A DNA stretch of 61,512 bases, the filler included, from Nitrospinota bacterium (lineage in GTDB: Bacteria > JADFOP01): NCBI GenBank assembly GCA_022562795.1. It is 3 parts of 3 records of this genome, joined end to end, with 100 filler letters (N's around TTAATTAATTAA, not from the genome) between each part and the next. Parts side by side here need not be neighbours in the genome. Positions count along the whole stretch, not along the records: positions 1 to 27,510 come from JADFOP010000028.1; 2 more parts are not named here. The stretch is one strand, 5' to 3'. The translations under genes and the position numbers were made by a program. Shown one piece after another: positions 2,808 to 52,093 of the stretch (positions are counted from its first letter, which is position 1; each line of letters begins with the position of its first letter). Under the pieces are notes generated by a model. The model worked only from the letters and a program-made list of their open reading frames with translations, was not told the DNA's origin and did no database searches.

Positions 2808-2812
2808 GCCGG

Positions 2813-3046
2813 TTAGGGCTCCATGCAGAACATGGTGTGGGTGGCCTCGATGCCCTCGATGGTGCGGATCTGATTGTAGACGATCTTAAGGACGTCCTCG
2901 GCAGTATCGCCCTTAACGGTCGCCACCACATCGTAGAGACCGCTCACCAGGAATACGTCCGAAGCCCCTTTGACCCCTTGGAGGGTTTGGGCTGACTCTG
3001 TATCAAGCCCAGCCTCGGTGTTTATTAAAATCAGTGCTAGCGCCAT
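2813..3046 (-). CDS. stand-alone Lrp/AsnC ligand-binding (RAM) domain protein
   Basis: 77 aa; ALILIN..G..VSGLYDVVA..IRTIEGIEATHT pattern; GGAGG RBS. Confidence 0.85.
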   Translation of the reverse strand: MALALILINTEAGLDTESAQTLQGVKGASDVFLVSGLYDVVATVKGDTAEDVLKIVYNQIRTIEGIEATHTMFCMEP

Positions 3047-3199
3047 GGGTTTGCCTCCTTGCCTTCGCGCCGTCGGTGCAATACGGCGAAGGGGTGGGAT
3101 GTGAGATTCGAAAAAGGGCCGACGGCCCTACCTCCAAACCTGGTACGCTTTTAATATAGCGCTGCTTTCGGTGAAATTGCAACGAGACGGCGGGGAAGA

Positions 3200-3982
3200 T
3201 CAGCCGCCGGGCAGGCAGAGCCGCTCGATAGAGAGCGCCCGGCCCGTGGACTCATCCACCTCGATGATGCAGGCGGAGAACTGGGACGGGCCGCTTGCGG
3301 TCTCCATCTTCTGGGGCTGGAGCGTTAGGAAACGCTTCAGGGCGAGCTCCTTGATCACGCCGATGACGCTCTCGGAAGGGCCGGTCATGCCGACGTCTGT
3401 GATGTAGGCGGTCCCGCCGGGCAGGATACGTTCGTCGGCGGTCTGGACGTGGGTATGGGTGCCGATGACCACCGAGGCCCGCCCGTCGAGATAGTAGCCC
3501 ATGGCCTGTTTCTCGCTCGTGGCCTCGGCGTGCATGTCCACGACGATGACCCGGGCGGCCTCGGCGAGCGCCGGCAACAGATCGTCGGCGGTCCGAAACG
3601 GACAGTCGTAGGATGCCATGAAGACCCGGCCCGAGAGGTTGAGGACAGCCACGGGAACGCCGCCGGGCGTCTCAGCGACGATTGAGCCGAACCCGGGCTG
3701 CGCCGGGGGGTAGTTTGCGGGCCGTAGCAGCCTGCGTTCGGTATCGATGACTTCCATGACCTCACGCTTGTCCCAGATGTGGTTGCCGCTGGTGAGCACA
3801 TCGATGCCGTAGGCGAAGAGCTGCTTGAGTATCGAGGGGGTCACGCCGAATCCCCCGGCTGCGTTCTCACAGTTGGCGATGGTGAGGTCCACGTTGCGGC
3901 TGTCAATGAGGCCGTAGAGGTGCTCGGCCACGGCCCTGCGGCCTGGCTTGCCCACGATGTCGCCGATAAAGCAGATCCTCAC
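3200..3982 (-). CDS. ymdB: YmdB-family metallophosphoesterase
   Basis: GDIVG, NCEN, TSGNH, DMHAEATSEK and GTHTH motifs; downstream of rny. Confidence 0.95.
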   Translation of the reverse strand: MRICFIGDIVGKPGRRAVAEHLYGLIDSRNVDLTIANCENAAGGFGVTPSILKQLFAYGIDVLTSGNHIWDKREVMEVIDTERRLLRPANYPPAQPGFGSIVAETPGGVPVAVLNLSGRVFMASYDCPFRTADDLLPALAEAARVIVVDMHAEATSEKQAMGYYLDGRASVVIGTHTHVQTADERILPGGTAYITDVGMTGPSESVIGVIKELALKRFLTLQPQKMETASGPSQFSACIIEVDESTGRALSIERLCLPGG

Positions 3983-4011: not shown

Positions 4012-5577
4012 TCAGCGCGCGAAATCAGTGGCCCTGGTCTCTCTGATAACGGTGACCTTGATCTCCCCCGGGTAGGCCATCTCGGCCTCGATTTTCTTGG
4101 CAATATCCCTGGCCAGCAAGTAGGTCTCTTTGTCGGGGATCGCCTCCGGCTCAACAAGGACCCGCACCTCACGACCCGCCTGAATGGCGTACGTGCTCCT
4201 CACCCCACGGAAGGAGTTGCCAACCTCCTCGAGCTGTGTGAGGCGCTTGATGTGGGACTCCAACATCGCCCGGCGCGCCCCCGGGCGTGCCGCGCTCAAG
4301 GTGTCGGCGGTGGAGACGAGGACCGCTTCGATGCACGTAGGCTCCTGGCCCTCGTGATGGCTGGCTATAGCATCGAGAACCGGCTCGGGCTCGCCGTACC
4401 GGCGGGCGATATCGAGGCCTATCTCGACGTGGCTCCCCTTGGTCTGGTGGTCGATGGACTTGCCGATGTCGTGGAGCAAGCCCGCACGCCTGGCCATTGT
4501 TGCGTCAATGCCAAGCTCGGAGGCCATCATCCCGCACAAGTGCGCCACCTCTTTGACGTGCTTTAGGCTGTTCTGGCCGTAAGAGGTCCGGTACTTGAGC
4601 CGGCCCACGAGCTTGATGATTTCGGGATGGAGCCCTTCGATCCCAAGCTCGAAAGCCGCCGCTTCGCCTTCCTCTTGAATGAGCTGATCCATTTCCTTCT
4701 TGACCTTGGCGACCATCTCCTCAATACGGCCCGGGTGGATGCGGCCGTCTTTGATGAGCCGCTCCAAGGCGATACGGGTGATCTCGCGTTTAACGGGATC
4801 GAAAGCTGAGAGGATGACCGCCTCGGGGGTGTCGTCAATGATGAGGTCGACGCCGGTGGCCGCCTCCAGGGCCCGTATGTTGCGCCCCTCGCGCCCGATG
4901 ATGCGGCCCTTCATCTCGTCGCTGGGCAAAGCGACAACGCTTACGGTAGACTCCACCACCATATCCGTCGCACAGCGCTCCATGGCAATGCTGAGGATAT
5001 TCTGGGCCTTCTTTTCCGCGGTGGCAGCCGTTTCTTCATCGATTTTCCGGAGACGGTTGACTGCGTCGCGCCGCGCCTCGTCTGTAAGCCGCTCGATTAT
5101 CTCAGCCTTGGCGTCCTCTCGGCTCAGGCCGCTCATCTCCTCGAGGACAACTATGTGGCGGTCAACGAGACGCTGGGCCTCGGCCTGCCTTGCGGCCAGC
5201 ACCTCCCTGTTCTCTTGGAGAGTCTTTTCCTGCTCCCTAATCTCTTGGTCTTTCGTCTCAATATAATCCGCTTTCTTATCGAGGATTTCCTCCTTCTTTG
5301 ACATCCGCCGCTCGAGGTCCAAGAGCTCCTGCCGTCGGTCCTTCGTCTTGCTTTCAAAATCCTGCTGGGCCTGGTAGATGAGCTCCTTCGCCTCTATACG
5401 AGCCTCCTTGCGGAGCGTCTCGGCTTCCCTCTCGGCCGCGGAGCGAATCTGAACGGTCTCTGCCTTCGCACCCTTGACCCGTCGGGCCGCGATCACCTTA
5501 TGGACGAGTATCCCTAAAGCTAACCCTACTATGGGTATAGCGAATAATATCGCCGGGTGGACGAGTATTGGGCTCAC
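4012..5577 (-). CDS. rny: ribonuclease Y
   Basis: N-terminal TM, coiled coil, KH (KGRIIGREGRNIR), HD (LLHDIGK), C-terminal AIQAGREVRV. Confidence 0.97.
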   Translation of the reverse strand: MSPILVHPAILFAIPIVGLALGILVHKVIAARRVKGAKAETVQIRSAAEREAETLRKEARIEAKELIYQAQQDFESKTKDRRQELLDLERRMSKKEEILDKKADYIETKDQEIREQEKTLQENREVLAARQAEAQRLVDRHIVVLEEMSGLSREDAKAEIIERLTDEARRDAVNRLRKIDEETAATAEKKAQNILSIAMERCATDMVVESTVSVVALPSDEMKGRIIGREGRNIRALEAATGVDLIIDDTPEAVILSAFDPVKREITRIALERLIKDGRIHPGRIEEMVAKVKKEMDQLIQEEGEAAAFELGIEGLHPEIIKLVGRLKYRTSYGQNSLKHVKEVAHLCGMMASELGIDATMARRAGLLHDIGKSIDHQTKGSHVEIGLDIARRYGEPEPVLDAIASHHEGQEPTCIEAVLVSTADTLSAARPGARRAMLESHIKRLTQLEEVGNSFRGVRSTYAIQAGREVRVLVEPEAIPDKETYLLARDIAKKIEAEMAYPGEIKVTVIRETRATDFAR

Positions 5578-6224
5578 AGCGTCTCCACCTCCTTCTCCTT
5601 CCGGGCCGTAAGTTGTGGCTCCGGCAACGGCCCTCCGGATTGTCTGCGGCAGTCAAGAATCCGCCTCTCGGTACAGATGAAATCCATTGGCACATCGTGC
5701 TCTTCGGCCGGCAGGGCCGGCTGAAGCTGACATTCAAACGCCAGGGCAACGACCACGCTTTCCGGGGCGCGACGGCTCAAGAGCCGGTCGAAGTAGCCAC
5801 GGCCCGTGCCGCATCGTCTGCCTGAGGGATCGAAAGCCACCCCAGGTACGATGAAGCAGTCCACCGCCTCAGCCTCGAGGGGCGGGGCTGCTCCTAGGCG
5901 GGGCTCCTCGATGCCAAAGGCGCCGAGTTCCACCTGTCCCTCCAGAGCCTCGATGGGGTAAAGTTCCAGGCGTCCCTCGGCGGCCACCCGAGGCACGACC
6001 ACACGGCAGCCGACCTCCAGGGCTCGGCCCACCAAAGGTCGGGTCTCCACTTCCTCGGCCGTAGCGAGGTAGAAGCAGACCGTCGCTTCGGGGCGGATAA
6101 CATCGAGGCGTGAAAGCCTCTGGCTCACAGCCTCGCTACTTCGGCGCCGCTCTTCCGGGCTCATCTGACTGCGTCGCAACCGCGCCGCTTCACGGAAGCC
6201 GGCCTTGGGCATCATCAACTCCAC
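5574..6224 (-). CDS. ygfA: 5-formyltetrahydrofolate cyclo-ligase
   Basis: VPGVAFD..GRRCGTGRGYFDR and HDVPMD motifs; classic position downstream of 6S RNA. Confidence 0.92.
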   Translation of the reverse strand: MELMMPKAGFREAARLRRSQMSPEERRRSSEAVSQRLSRLDVIRPEATVCFYLATAEEVETRPLVGRALEVGCRVVVPRVAAEGRLELYPIEALEGQVELGAFGIEEPRLGAAPPLEAEAVDCFIVPGVAFDPSGRRCGTGRGYFDRLLSRRAPESVVVALAFECQLQPALPAEEHDVPMDFICTERRILDCRRQSGGPLPEPQLTARKEKEVETL

Positions 6225-6265
6225 CTCGGCCCTACGCCAGGAGCATCGGCGCTGGGGTCTATGGA

Positions 6266-6718
6266 GCGCGGCGGCAGGTTGGAATGTGGTTAGGAAGTAG
6301 TTTGGTTGAGCCTAGCTGCTAAGAGGCAGAAGGCAGTCTGAGCCTTGAACCTTTAGCCATAACCAGGAGAGGACGGACGCGACGACTAGGGTCGGGCTGA
6401 GCCCTCCAGCACCCCAGCTGTTCGCTTACGGGGGCGACCAATTGCGCTGTCAAGCATTGAAGCTAATTCTCACCAATTCAGTAACCTTCCGTTAGGAAGG
6501 AATGACGAGAGTCGGGAATGCCCCTCCCTCTTGGGAAAGGAACCGAGCCGCTCCACTGTCGTCTTGCTAACCCTGTTGGGTTACAACAGCTGCGCCTCAA
6601 CGCAGCCTCTCCTTACAGACTTCCTAAACCAGCTTTCCTTGCAATCGCCTCGGCAAGGCCTAGTAGGGGGACTTAAGGCCCCGCGGCCTGCTCGAGCCTG
6701 AGGCAGCCACCGCCGCCT
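6266..6718 (-). ncRNA. putative large structured non-coding RNA, family unknown
   Basis: No long ORF; four nested long-range helices (6268-6274/6710-6716, 6288-6298/6619-6630, 6365-6372/6606-6613, 6381-6386/6558-6563) plus many local hairpins with cUAACg and GAGA loops on the minus strand. Confidence 0.6.
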
Positions 6719-6772
6719 CGTGAACGCTCAAAGGGAACCCCTGGGGAGCCCCTTTCACACCATTAATAATAA

Positions 6773-6951
6773 AACCCCCACCCTAGCCGTGCGGCACCAA
6801 ATTTTGAACCTGGCTTAACCAGGTGGGTGCCCCCTGACCGGCTTTAGGCTCCCCTCTCGCGGAGGGTTTGCTCACCACCGTCCAAGCGGGGCTCCCCTTT
6901 TTAGGCTGTTGGCTCAAAATTTGTGTACCCACACGCACTTGGGTAGGGGTT
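6773..6951 (-). ncRNA. ssrS: 6S RNA
   Basis: Terminal stem AACCCCTACCC/GGGTGGGGGTT; GAGCC..GGCACCCACCTGG..CCAGGTTCAA signature; ~180 nt; upstream of the cyclo-ligase. Confidence 0.92.
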
Positions 6952-6964
6952 AAACACCGAAGGC

Positions 6965-6993
6965 ATTATAGACCCAGGGAGGGGGCCTTGCAA
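6965..6993 (-). promoter_or_regulatory. sigma70 promoter of 6S RNA
   Basis: Minus strand TTGCAA-17 bp-TATAAT just upstream of the 6S 5' stem. Confidence 0.85.
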
Positions 6994-41532: not shown

Positions 41533-41742
41533 CCCCCTTACCTCCAGATCCTGCTCCCCCAGCGACCCATCTCCGACATGCCAATATCCTATTTTCTATA
41601 AAAGTCCGCCTGACGCTGCCTAACAGAAAGGGAGTCTTTTAAGGCTCTGCGGCATGCCCTCCATCTCCGTCAGCACTCTGAAAACTATTATATCCTTGAC
41701 TATCAACTCAGGGTGCGATATATAATAAACATAGTTGTCTTT

Positions 41743-41912
41743 CTCTGCGGATGCCCGCTAGGGCTGTAGACAGGGAAGAGGGTGAGAATCCCTCACGGTC
41801 TCTCCGCCACTGTGATGGGGGACGAAAGCCCGAAGTCGCCACTGTCCCTTTGCCGGGATGGGAAGGCAGGGCGAGTAGGACGATCCCTAAGTCAGTAGAC
41901 CTATTCGTAGAG
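41743..41912 (+). promoter_or_regulatory. cobalamin riboswitch
   Basis: AGGGAA.GGTGAGAATCC, GCCACTG twice, GGGAAGG, AGTCAG.AGACC B12 box; P1 41743-52/41903-12; upstream of a TonB receptor. Confidence 0.93.
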
Positions 41913-41971
41913 CGTTTCCAACAGTCCTTCGGGGGTAGAGGACGTGGAAGTTGCTCGCATCACTCCACGGC

Positions 41972-52006: not shown

Positions 52007-52093
52007 GCCCAAGTGGCGGAATTGGCAGACGCGCATGATTCAGGGTCATGTGGCCTTACGGCCGTGGGGGTTCGAGTCCCTCCTTGGGCACCA
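52007..52093 (+). tRNA. tRNA-Leu(CAG)
   Basis: GCCCAAG/CTTGGGC acceptor stem, CATGA-TTCAGGG-TCATG anticodon arm, long variable arm, GGTTCGAGTCC, encoded CCA; TTGACT-16-TAAGAT promoter at 51945-51972. Confidence 0.96.

What the first reader, a model, noticed from the sequence alone, without database searches (positions are those of the whole stretch)
6260..6760. Unannotated ~450-500 nt ornate structured RNA between 6S RNA and the ygfA-rny-ymdB operon
Seen: ~550 nt with no long ORF where 6S and the cyclo-ligase gene are normally close. On the minus strand four long-range helices nest correctly: GCGGCGG/CCGCCGC (6716-6710 with 6274-6268); GGUUUAGGAAGU/ACUUCCUAACC, extendable by GGAA/UUCC (6630-6619 with 6298-6288); AGGAGAGG/CCUCUCCU (6613-6606 with 6372-6365); GACGAC/GUCGUC (6563-6558 with 6386-6381). 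The junctions are filled with hairpins: GCUGCG/CGCAGC, CUGUUG/CAACAG, CCUUCC-UAAC-GGAAGG, a GAGA-capped stem, CCUUGC/GCAAGG. Alternative or pseudoknot pairings also exist (UAACCC/GGGUUA, CCCC/GGGG, AGUCUG/CAGACU). cUAACg and GNRA loops read on the minus strand, the same sense as 6S. I do not see the signatures of RNase P, tmRNA, SRP, group I/II introns, T-box or HEARO/omegaRNA. Inference: a new large ncRNA or giant cis-regulatory leader, possibly tied to RNase Y/YmdB RNA turnover or folate sensing.
Basis: partly seen in the sequence, partly recalled or inferred. Interest (0 to 1): 0.85.

Follow-up and report, generated by a model that had tools for sequence, protein, structure and literature searches.

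The report
Structured RNA tail behind 6S RNA
The 546-base gene-free stretch after the 6S RNA gene of an uncultured marine-sediment bacterium is found as RNA joined to 6S, has a well-folding core and matches no catalogued RNA family, but with only one usable relative its elaborate proposed fold cannot be proven and it looks most like an oversized transcript spacer that ends or trims the 6S transcript before the RNase Y operon.

Summary
The gap is real: 546 nt (6225-6770) between 6S RNA (6771-6952, minus) and the 5-FTHF cyclo-ligase/RNase Y/YmdB genes. It is non-coding and single-copy, and neither copy matches any Rfam 15 family even at E<=10. One close relative (L001) keeps a 550-nt spacer; a third, more divergent contig keeps the length. 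Metatranscriptome contigs cover 6285-6577 and 6649-6900, bridging 6S into the element, but not the flanking genes. The core 6281-6638 folds better than dinucleotide shuffles in both genomes (z -3.3, -5.35). The shared fold beats a substitution-permutation null (z -3.6 to -3.9).

Against the 'ornate' model, single-sequence MFE folds do not transfer between the two genomes (33-36% of changed pairs kept vs null 35-36%). A structure model scores lower than a sequence-only one. Compensatory counts are not significant, and helix H3 and the pseudoknots fail. H1, the H2 core, H4 and hairpins HpA, HpC and HpE survive. The 3' end is a conserved C-rich, G-poor tract (35 C, 10 G in 80 nt).

Best reading (0.5): an expanded, structured, transcribed ssrS-ygfA spacer acting in 6S 3'-end formation and read-through control. 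A free-standing new large ncRNA stays possible (0.25). Folate sensing has no support.

The parts
6965..6993 (-). 6S promoter (TTGCAA, 17 nt, TATAAT) preceded by a T-run
   Evidence: Promoter scan, 10 of 12 matches. T-run, CTTGC and GTCTATAAT are conserved in L001. No shared promoter-like site between 6S and ygfA.
6771..6952 (-). 6S RNA (ssrS)
   Evidence: RF00013, 107.1 bits, full length; 85% identical to the L001 copy.
6757..6770 (-). A/U-rich single-stranded linker directly after the 6S closing stem; possible endonuclease cut site (inferred)
   Evidence: Sequence. Unpaired in the consensus fold. Bridged by RNA contig 6649-6900.
6730..6755 (-). Hairpin P0 (AAAGGGG/UCCCUUU with inner GCUCC/GGGGU)
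   Evidence: Joint base-pair probability 0.73-0.80 in both genomes folded separately; double changes in consensus helices 2 and 3.
6707..6716 (-). H1, 5' arm (GCGGCGGUGG)
   Evidence: Pairs with 6268-6277. 7 of 7 core pairs kept in L001 with two G-C to G-U changes, which pair only on this strand.
6639..6706 (-). Variable, strain-polymorphic region with poorly conserved hairpins
   Evidence: Identity 0.45-0.53 to L001. Strain indel at 6676, and DNA contigs break at 6595-6700. CCUUGC/GCAAGG keeps 4 of 6 pairs.
6281..6638 (-). Structured core, closed by GGAA/UUCC (6638-6635 with 6284-6281) and H2 (6631-6619 with 6298-6287)
   Evidence: MFE z -3.29 (window) and -5.35 (L001), 0 of 100 shuffles each. 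Closing helices have joint probability 0.87-0.98. H2 core has a U-A to C-G exchange. RNA contigs cover 6285-6577 and 6281-6504.
6588..6607 (-). Hairpin HpA (GGCUGCG/CGCAGCU)
6558..6563 (-). H4, 5' arm (GACGAC), pairs with 6381-6386
   Evidence: 6 of 6 kept in L001, two changes to G-U. A local alternative partner, UCGUC at 6504-6508, also exists (by eye).
6537..6556 (-). Best-conserved block, GUGGAGCGGCUCGGUUCCUU (one C/U difference from L001)
   Evidence: Alignment. The same C to U change occurs in strain variants at 6545.
6521..6540 (-). Hairpin HpC (CCUUUCCC/GGGAGGGG; L001 CCUUAUCU/AGAUAAGG)
   Evidence: By hand, 8 of 8 pairs kept with 3 double and 2 one-sided changes. Joint probability 0.67. 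The register is slippery, and strain SNPs at 6526 and 6538 would break pairs in this register.
6485..6500 (-). Hairpin HpE (CCUUCC-UAAC-GGAAGG), followed by conserved UUACU
   Evidence: Probability 0.99. Stem invariant; loop UAAC against UCAAC in L001; strain SNP at 6491 falls in the loop.
6365..6372 (-). H3, 3' arm (CCUCUCCU; partner 6606-6613): present in the window, not conserved
   Evidence: 6 of 8 in L001 with two internal mismatches. In L001's MFE the homologous stretch pairs elsewhere.
6254..6333 (-). C-rich, G-poor tract (35 C, 10 G in 80 nt); holds the 3' arms of H2 and H1; candidate Rho loading (rut-like) site
   Evidence: C-G = +25, against -1.7 +/- 6.8 (maximum 16) in the operon's coding sequence; +20 at the same place in L001. 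No local structure of its own (z -0.3).
6268..6277 (-). H1, 3' arm (CUGCCGCCGC)
   Evidence: See H1 5' arm. Lies just beyond the ends of the RNA contigs at 6281/6285.
5574..6224 (-). 5-formyltetrahydrofolate cyclo-ligase gene (ygfA type), first gene after the element; followed by RNase Y and YmdB
   Evidence: PF01812, E=5e-40. Not covered by the RNA-library contigs.

Best explanation
The element is the transcribed spacer of an ssrS-ygfA-rny-ymdB unit: a greatly enlarged 3' trailer of the 6S transcript that doubles as the leader of the RNase Y operon.

Proposed mechanism. Transcription starts at the conserved 6S promoter and runs through 6S into the element (shown only as an RNA-library contig bridging the junction). 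A roughly 360-nt core (6638-6281) folds into a compact domain whose ends are clamped by the GGAA/UUCC and H2 helices, which lets it accumulate as RNA. The last ~80 nt form a C-rich, G-poor, locally unstructured tract. This is where I infer that Rho loads, or an endonuclease cuts, so most transcripts end before ygfA and are trimmed back to the base of the clamp at about 6281-6285. How much of that tract is tied up in the long-range helices H1 and H2 would then set how much read-through from the strong 6S promoter reaches the RNase Y operon.

Shown: non-coding, found in an RNA library joined to 6S, length-conserved, stable core, conserved C-rich tail. Inferred: Rho or RNase involvement, 3' trimming, control of read-through.
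For: Layout. 6S and the operon share a strand, and the only strong promoter is the 6S one, conserved in L001.

RNA evidence. Metatranscriptome X19 has one contig at 6649-6900 bridging the 6S 3' end by 130 and 122 nt, and another at 6285-6577. X20 has 6281-6504. None covers 5574-6224 or the region upstream of 6924. Contigs from two studies stop at 6285/6281 where DNA contigs continue.

Folding. Core z is -3.29 and -5.35. The end clamp is predicted independently in both genomes.

Conservation. Spacer length is 546 vs 550 nt, and 692 vs 686 in a third, divergent contig. Identity is 0.57 over all columns, against 0.35 and 0.32 for the two other syntenic intergenic regions and 0.31 for shuffles.

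C-rich tract. +25 in the window and +20 in L001 at the same position. Rho is present in G001.

Precedent. [quoted passage not shown]

Context. 6S followed by (ygfA and) rny is common: 5 of 14 loci and 12 of 29 relatives' loci. Their spacers are about 40-470 nt and mutually unrelated.
Against: No read-through into ygfA was seen; contigs cannot show ends, strand or levels.

The C-rich tract is composition only. In an independent set of 8 spacers of 150 nt or more, the most C-rich window lay in the 3' part (relative centre above 0.6) in only 5, and at 0.22-0.44 in 3.

A simple trailer need not be 546 nt or hold a stable 360-nt domain. Other lineages manage with 40-300 nt, so the size itself is unexplained.

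The 3' arm of H1 lies outside the RNA contigs.

The element's identity in ungapped columns (0.63) equals that of 4-fold sites (0.62-0.66). All 4 and all 5 differences in two strain contigs fall in the element and none in the adjacent CDS, so constraint is weak.
Confidence: 0.5

Rival explanations
1. A free-standing, trans-acting large structured ncRNA of a new family (about 360-490 nt). It would be co-transcribed with 6S and cut out at the A/U-rich linker, and would have its own partner, for example RNA polymerase, RNase Y/YmdB or another protein.
For: No Rfam family matches either copy. The core is significantly stable in both genomes, with 5' and 3' ends paired as in many stable RNAs. It is present in RNA libraries while the flanking mRNA is not. 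The shared fold beats a substitution-permutation null at z -3.6 to -3.9, 0 of 100. HpC shows 3 double changes. G-U changes in H1 and H4 fit only the 6S strand.
Against: Only two full sequences. Compensatory pairs number 22 against 17.3 +/- 3.6 expected (12 of 100 permutations reach it). Blind MFE transfer is at chance. The structure model scores below the sequence-only model. Local windows give only z -0.3 to -2.6. The sequence evolves fast. No homologue in G002, in 29 relatives' 6S loci or in 13 metagenome loci. The RNA contig bridges 6S and the element, so separate molecules are not shown.
Confidence: 0.25
2. Weakly constrained or neutral spacer DNA, for example the remains of a decayed gene or insertion. 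It would be transcribed only because it lies downstream of the strong 6S promoter, with its helices being by-products of a G-rich 5' half and a C-rich 3' half.
For: Identity (0.63) equals that of 4-fold sites. Strain differences concentrate in it. The whole-gap z is -1.38. MFE folds are not conserved. Other lineages have unrelated spacers of many lengths.
Against: Length is kept in three lineages with only small indels. It aligns far better than the two other intergenic regions, which sit at shuffle level. The core z-scores are -3.3 and -5.35. Some blocks and hairpins are invariant. There is no trace of a reading frame or Pfam domain.
Confidence: 0.17
3. A metabolite-sensing leader (riboswitch-like, for example folate-related) controlling ygfA.
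For: Position upstream of a folate enzyme gene; large conserved hairpins.
Against: No hit to any Rfam riboswitch family at E<=10 in either copy. There is no expression platform: no terminator-like site on the 6S strand within the gap in the window (the only one found lies upstream of 6S at 7156-7141), and in L001 only HpE scores weakly as terminator-like while RNA contigs read through the window's copy. Most ssrS-ygfA loci have short, unrelated spacers.
Confidence: 0.04
4. A mobile repeat (MITE) or a CsrA-type protein sponge.
For: A weak RsmW-like hit in L001 (20.5 bits, E=0.34). Many inverted repeats.
Against: Single copy in G001 and in the window. GGA count is 7 and 12 against 9.6 and 10.8 in shuffles.
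Confidence: 0.01

Closest known systems
E. coli ssrS-ygfA dicistronic transcript with Rho-dependent 3'-end formation and 3' trimming of 6S RNA (Chae et al. 2011; seen only as cited, with describing passages in PMC3299989 and PMC7641849)
   Same: 6S RNA directly upstream of, and on the same strand as, a 5-FTHF cyclo-ligase gene. One strong promoter ahead of 6S. Transcription continues past the 6S 3' end. A C-rich tract and a Rho gene are present in the lineage.
   Different: Here 546 nt separate 6S from ygfA. The intervening RNA has a stable ~360-nt core that itself accumulates. The operon continues into RNase Y and YmdB. Rho dependence is untested. In E. coli the termination is reported within ygfA, not upstream of it.
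Structured 5' UTR of E. coli rne, used for RNase E autoregulation
   Same: A long, structured non-coding RNA ahead of the gene for the cell's main decay-initiating endonuclease. It suggests feedback by RNase Y cleavage in the spacer.
   Different: A different enzyme family. A ygfA gene lies in between. No sequence or structure similarity was tested, and no evidence of cleavage exists here.
Large 'ornate' bacterial ncRNAs (OLE, GOLLD, ROOL, HEARO, raiA), which I recall as being in Rfam
   Same: Size class (350-550 nt), many helices, unknown biochemical function, uncultured or environmental hosts.
   Different: No match to any Rfam model at E<=10 in either copy. Much narrower distribution, much faster sequence drift, and no significant covariation.
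6S RNA precursors with leaders or trailers removed by RNases (B. subtilis 6S-1/6S-2; PMC10578484, abstract and passages seen)
   Same: 6S is made from a longer transcript and trimmed at its 3' end by exonucleases.
   Different: Those extensions are short. That paper could not assign RNase Y a specific role. Here the extension is about three times the length of 6S.

Membership tests
6S RNA (RF00013) | Match of the element itself to the 6S covariance model | tested here: not met
   Only 6771-6952 matches. Nothing in 6150-6800 outside 6S at E<=10.
Any catalogued RNA family (Rfam 15, 4227 models, including large ornate RNAs and riboswitches) | Score at or above the gathering threshold | tested here: not met
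   Window: best 15.5 bits against 85 needed. L001: best 20.5 against 52.
ssrS-ygfA co-transcribed spacer (E. coli type) | 6S immediately upstream of, and co-oriented with, the 5-FTHF cyclo-ligase gene | tested here: met
   the same in L001.
ssrS-ygfA co-transcribed spacer (E. coli type) | Transcription continues from 6S into the spacer | tested here: met
   RNA-library contig 6649-6900 bridges the junction with 122 and 130 nt on either side. Caveat: these are contigs, carry no strand information, and DNA carry-over cannot be excluded.
ssrS-ygfA co-transcribed spacer (E. coli type) | Transcript reaches ygfA (dicistronic RNA) | tested here: inconclusive
   No RNA contig lies over 5574-6280. Absence of cover in contigs proves nothing.
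ssrS-ygfA co-transcribed spacer (E. coli type) | Rho-dependent 3'-end formation | not testable with these tools
   Indirect only: a C-rich, G-poor tract (35 C, 10 G), conserved in L001, and Rho in G001. The pattern generalises to only 5 of 8 independent spacers.
Structured ncRNA supported by covariation | Significantly more compensatory changes than expected | tested here: inconclusive
   Two sequences only. 22 against 17.3 +/- 3.6. Blind transfer at chance. The circular count is not evidence.
Structured ncRNA supported by thermodynamics | MFE clearly below dinucleotide shuffles | tested here: met
   Core: z -3.29 (window) and -5.35 (L001), 0 of 100 each. The whole gap in the window gives only -1.38.
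MITE / dispersed repeat | Multiple copies in a genome | tested here: not met
   One match in G001 and one in the window.
CsrA/RsmA-sequestering sRNA | Excess of GGA motifs | tested here: not met
   7 and 12 observed against 9.6 and 10.8 in shuffles.

The most novel reading that the evidence does not exclude
6S RNA in this marine-sediment lineage is made as, and may work as, a composite RNA of about 670 nt: the RNA-polymerase-binding 6S domain fused to a new ~360-490-nt folded domain. That second domain would either be released as a new stable large ncRNA or couple 6S production to expression of the RNase Y/YmdB RNA-decay operon, through a structure-gated Rho loading site.
Probability: 0.25. 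Interest if true: 0.75.

Novelty: new variant of a known kind. Interest (0 to 1): 0.5.

Why it matters
6S RNA is a global regulator of transcription, and RNase Y starts most mRNA decay in the bacteria that have it. I found the two genes linked, with spacers of very different lengths, in many uncultured lineages: 5 of 14 and 12 of 29 loci examined. This window holds the longest spacer seen among them, and it is the only one that I checked against sequencing runs, where it turned up as RNA.

If the spacer gates read-through from the 6S promoter, it would tie a transcription brake to the RNA-decay machinery in one transcript. If it is a free large RNA, it adds a new member to the short list of big bacterial RNAs of unknown function. 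Either way it is a concrete, clonable target of about 700 nt for Rho, RNase Y and structure-probing experiments.

The case is limited by sampling. The lineage is widespread in sediment metagenomes (18 runs from 9 studies hold half or more of the query's sampled words), so the sequences needed for a covariation test exist but were out of reach here.

Tried and rejected
1. Whole-genome search of the window's own genome: none is held.
13 loci came back and none carries the element.
3. G002, the only other genome of the phylum held: it has ygfA-rny but no 6S and no long spacer upstream.
4. nhmmer and blastn of the element against all loci, and against 29 6S-downstream regions: no hit beyond L001. 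Covariance model R1 over 35 loci: none at E<=1. A short 35-nt match in G041 (E=7.8e-4) was not in a 6S context and was not pursued.
5. Using alignability as proof of selection was weakened by 4-fold-site identity being equal, then partly restored by the intergenic baseline (only two regions).
6. Transfer of single-sequence MFE folds failed. L001's full MFE used as a covariance model also failed (the two models are weighted differently, so the scores compare only roughly).
7. The count of structure pairs on the consensus gives 22 double changes against 1-4 when slid. This is circular, because the structure came from the same two rows.
8. Coding or pseudogene reading: rejected.
9. CsrA sponge: rejected.
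10. HpE as an intrinsic terminator (flagged in L001): rejected, because RNA contigs read through it.
11. RNA cover missing over ygfA and upstream of 6S in X19 and X20: contigs only, so not used as proof of absence.
12. Earlier scan notes: nothing near this place and no look-alike stretch.
13. The primary paper of Chae et al. 2011 is not held. Its content is taken from citing passages only.
14. Papers' supplements were not consulted.
15. Searches for prior description, '6S RNA' plus 'Nitrospin' (0 papers) and three ssrS/ygfA/RNase Y/Rho searches, listed nothing describing a long structured RNA between ssrS and ygfA.
Full report
WHAT IS THERE

The window carries a full-length 6S RNA gene at 6771-6952 on the minus strand (RF00013, 107 bits). 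A sigma-70-type promoter sits at 6993-6965. Downstream on the same strand lie a 5-formyltetrahydrofolate cyclo-ligase gene (5574-6224), RNase Y (4012-5577) and YmdB (3200-3982). Between 6S and the cyclo-ligase gene are 546 nt (6225-6770).

The gap is non-coding:
- The longest ORFs are 40-56 aa, and no Pfam family reached significance in any of the 5 tested; the only listed match (Tim29) had E=0.19 at 11.7 bits against a 25-bit cut-off.
- Differences from the one relative are spread evenly over codon positions (0.38/0.37/0.35).
- The indels (1, 3, 5, 6, 7 and 13 nt) shift any frame.

Rfam 15 gives nothing. At E<=10 the only hits are eukaryotic snoRNA and lncRNA models at 8.6-15.5 bits in the window and four sub-threshold hits in the relative. 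The element is single-copy in the window and in the relative's genome, so it is not a dispersed repeat.

RELATIVES

No genome is held for the window. A scan of species-representative genomes with RNase Y found one close relative, L001 (record title 'Nitrospinae bacterium ...'), at 80% protein identity. Everything else was at 57% or less.

L001 has the same layout: 6S at 2621-2803, a 550-nt gap, then the cyclo-ligase gene at 3354. Its phylum holds only two genomes in the collection. The second, G002, keeps ygfA-rny but has no 6S and no long spacer there. A metagenome scan gave 13 loci, none with the element.

A 'relatives' search reached 100 genomes. Among 29 further 6S loci, 12 have RNase Y within 1.5 kb downstream; 4 of these have the cyclo-ligase gene in between, and a fifth locus (G005) has the cyclo-ligase gene only. 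The spacers are about 40-470 nt. Earlier, 5 of 14 loci from other phyla showed 6S upstream of RNase Y. None of these spacers resembles the element, either by nhmmer (no hit at E<=10 in the 29 regions) or by a covariance model (no hit at E<=1 in 35 loci).

The arrangement 6S, spacer, (ygfA), rny is therefore common. This particular spacer is confined to a narrow lineage and is the longest one seen.

IS IT CONSTRAINED?

- Identity to L001 is 0.63 in ungapped columns and 0.57 over all columns. 6S stands at 0.85.
- 4-fold degenerate sites of the two flanking genes are equally alike (0.62-0.66), so alignability alone does not prove selection.
- The two other true intergenic regions in the syntenic block have fallen to 0.35 and 0.32 over all columns. 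That is the level of shuffled controls (0.31, maximum 0.38).
- Length is kept: 546 against 550 nt. A third, divergent contig in a sediment metagenome has 686 letters where the window has 692.
- Against strong constraint: in two strain-level DNA contigs spanning the gene and the element, all 4 and all 5 differences lie in the element and none in the coding part.

I read this as moderate constraint on length and on some blocks, with fast drift elsewhere.

IS IT RNA?

One metatranscriptome (X19) holds two contigs of a ~97% identical strain. One covers 6285-6577. The other covers 6649-6900 and crosses the 6S 3' end, with 130 nt on one side and 122 nt on the other. A second library (X20, labelled RNA-Seq but possibly DNA) holds 6281-6504. 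Neither covers the cyclo-ligase gene or the region upstream of 6924, while DNA contigs run through both. The contigs from these two studies stop at 6285 and 6281.

Contigs cannot give strand, ends or levels, and DNA carry-over cannot be excluded. Cover restricted to 6S plus the element is, however, what an abundant RNA would give. The gap at 6578-6648 coincides with a strain-polymorphic zone that also breaks the DNA assemblies.

STRUCTURE: WHAT HOLDS

- All quoted helices are present.
- The whole gap folds no better than dinucleotide shuffles (z -1.38). The core 6281-6638 does (z -3.29, 0 of 100). L001's copy does so strongly (z -5.35, whole and core).
- Folding each genome separately and projecting base-pair probabilities onto the alignment gives a shared set: a hairpin just after 6S (6755-6730); H1 (6716-6707 with 6277-6268); GGAA/UUCC (6638-6635 with 6284-6281); the outer part of H2 (6631-6627 with 6291-6287); and hairpins HpA (6607-6588), HpC (6540-6521) and HpE (6500-6485).
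- In L001, H1 and H4 each keep every pair through two changes to G-U, which pair only on the 6S strand. The H2 core swaps U-A for C-G. HpC keeps 8 of 8 pairs with three double and two one-sided changes. HpE's stem is invariant while its loop changes.
- A strain variant deletes one U at 6625/6626, within the run of three U (6628-6626) in the 5' arm of H2 that leaves one U bulged, which would remove the bulge (my inference).
- The two-sequence RNAalifold energy (-119.4 kcal/mol) beats column shuffles (z -4.39 sense, -3.48 antisense). It also beats a stricter null in which the window sequence is kept and L001's letters are permuted among columns with the same window base (z -3.9 globally and -3.6 in 60-column blocks; 0 of 100).

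STRUCTURE: WHAT FAILS

- Taking the MFE fold of one genome and asking whether the other genome's substitutions keep the pairs gives 0.33 and 0.36 kept, against a null of 0.36 and 0.35 (P 0.71 and 0.43).
- A covariance model built from L001's own MFE structure finds the window at 57.7 bits with many non-canonical pairs. The sequence-only twin scores 96.6 bits.
- Re-predicted consensus folds of permuted alignments contain 17.3 +/- 3.6 'compensatory' pairs against 22 observed (12 of 100 reach it). The impressive table is circular.
- Sliding 140-column windows reach only z -0.3 to -2.6.
- H3 acquires two internal mismatches, and in L001 its 5' arm is the one needed for H2. The homologue of its 3' arm pairs elsewhere in L001's MFE.
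- CUGUUG/CAACAG is replaced by a shifted hairpin. The pseudoknot proposals keep 1 of 6 and 0 of 6 pairs.

Conclusion: a clamped core with several conserved hairpins is credible. The detailed 'ornate' nesting is not established.

The element is polar. It has a G-rich 5' half (C-G down to -16 per 60 nt) and a C-rich, G-poor tail. Positions 6333-6254 hold 35 C and 10 G, against -1.7 +/- 6.8 (maximum +16) in the operon's coding sequence, and L001 has the same at the same place. This tail has no local structure of its own (z -0.3). It holds the 3' arms of H2 and H1 and ends 29 nt before the gene.

In the first seven 6S-downstream spacers examined, the most C-rich 80-nt window always ended 10-32 nt before the next ORF (the window and L001, and L009 and L012, are close pairs). 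In an independent set of eight spacers the most C-rich window lay in the 3' part in five and not in three. So this is a tendency, not a rule. Rho is encoded in G001.

HOW IT MOST LIKELY WORKS

In E. coli the ssrS-ygfA dicistron is processed to mature 6S. [quoted passage not shown]

The simplest reading here is an expanded version of that design:
1. The conserved 6S promoter drives 6S and the spacer.
2. The core folds and is clamped at its ends.
3. Rho (or an endonuclease such as RNase Y, which prefers A/U-rich single strands according to the introduction of PMC10578484) acts on the exposed C-rich tail or the A/U-rich linker.
4. Exonucleases trim back to the clamp at about 6281-6285.
5. Pairing of the tail with the G-rich 5' arms (H1, H2) would limit Rho access and set read-through into ygfA-rny-ymdB.

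Steps 1 and 2 rest on data. Steps 3 to 5 are inference. I give this 0.5.

A free-standing new large ncRNA gets 0.25, a weakly constrained transcribed spacer 0.17, a metabolite-sensing leader 0.04, and a repeat or CsrA sponge 0.01.

COMPARISON AND NOVELTY

It works most like the E. coli ssrS-ygfA trailer but differs in three ways. It is several-fold longer, it contains a stable folded domain that itself shows up as RNA, and it precedes the RNase Y operon. It is not a member of any Rfam family.

Four full-text searches listed nothing describing such an element.

I file it as a new variant of a known kind, with interest 0.5. It is real, expressed and unexplained, but narrowly distributed, fast-evolving and unproven structurally.

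Noticed in passing
L009:2243-2669 and L012:2231-2648: In two Nitrospirota genomes 6S RNA is followed by a ~420-nt stretch that is 79% identical between them and unrelated to this element. After it come a 446-aa ORF whose N-terminal part carries a GPPGSGKT P-loop motif (family not tested) and RNase Y. One copy has a 95-aa ORF that looks spurious. This may be another structured 6S trailer.
   Followed up: partly
L074, L086, L012, L009, L014; L110-L133: 6S RNA lies directly upstream of RNase Y (sometimes with ygfA between) in 5 of 14 and 12 of 29 loci from several phyla, often with zapB-zapA ahead of 6S (by eye in G005 and G008). I did not find this ssrS-rny linkage described in the four searches made.
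   Followed up: partly
L111 (G008:C132), 591 nt after 6S: At least 591 nt downstream of 6S have no ORF of 80 aa or more up to the contig end. This is possibly an even longer spacer, unrelated in sequence.
   Followed up: no
window 6289-6297 and 6491-6499: The 9-nt word CUUCCUAAC (RNA sense) occurs twice: once as the 5' strand plus loop of hairpin HpE, and once as the 3' arm of H2. The 5' arm of H2 (6620-6627) could therefore pair with either (D4, I9, I14), giving a possible alternative fold. It is only partly kept in L001.
   Followed up: partly
window 6595-6700: A strain-polymorphic zone: 1-nt deletions at 6625/6626, a 3-nt insertion after 6676, several SNPs, and broken DNA and RNA assemblies in all four runs laid.
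   Followed up: partly
window 41732-41922 (+) and 52007-52090 (+): A cobalamin riboswitch (90.7 bits) and a tRNA gene were found by the Rfam scan of the whole window.
   Followed up: no
window 2808-3199 (-): Downstream of ymdB lies a small conserved ORF of about 77 aa, preceded by a promoter-like TTGCAA...TATATT and a hairpin. The region is 0.70 identical to G001 in aligned columns. G001 has about 2.3 kb of extra DNA after it.
   Followed up: no
window 6225-6260 (-): A hairpin (GCGCC...GGCGU) sits between the C-rich tract and the Shine-Dalgarno-like GAGGUGGAG of the cyclo-ligase gene. It keeps pairing in L001 through five one-sided changes (helix 25). The true start codon may be one of the ATGs at about 6213-6210 rather than the GTG at 6224.
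   Followed up: no
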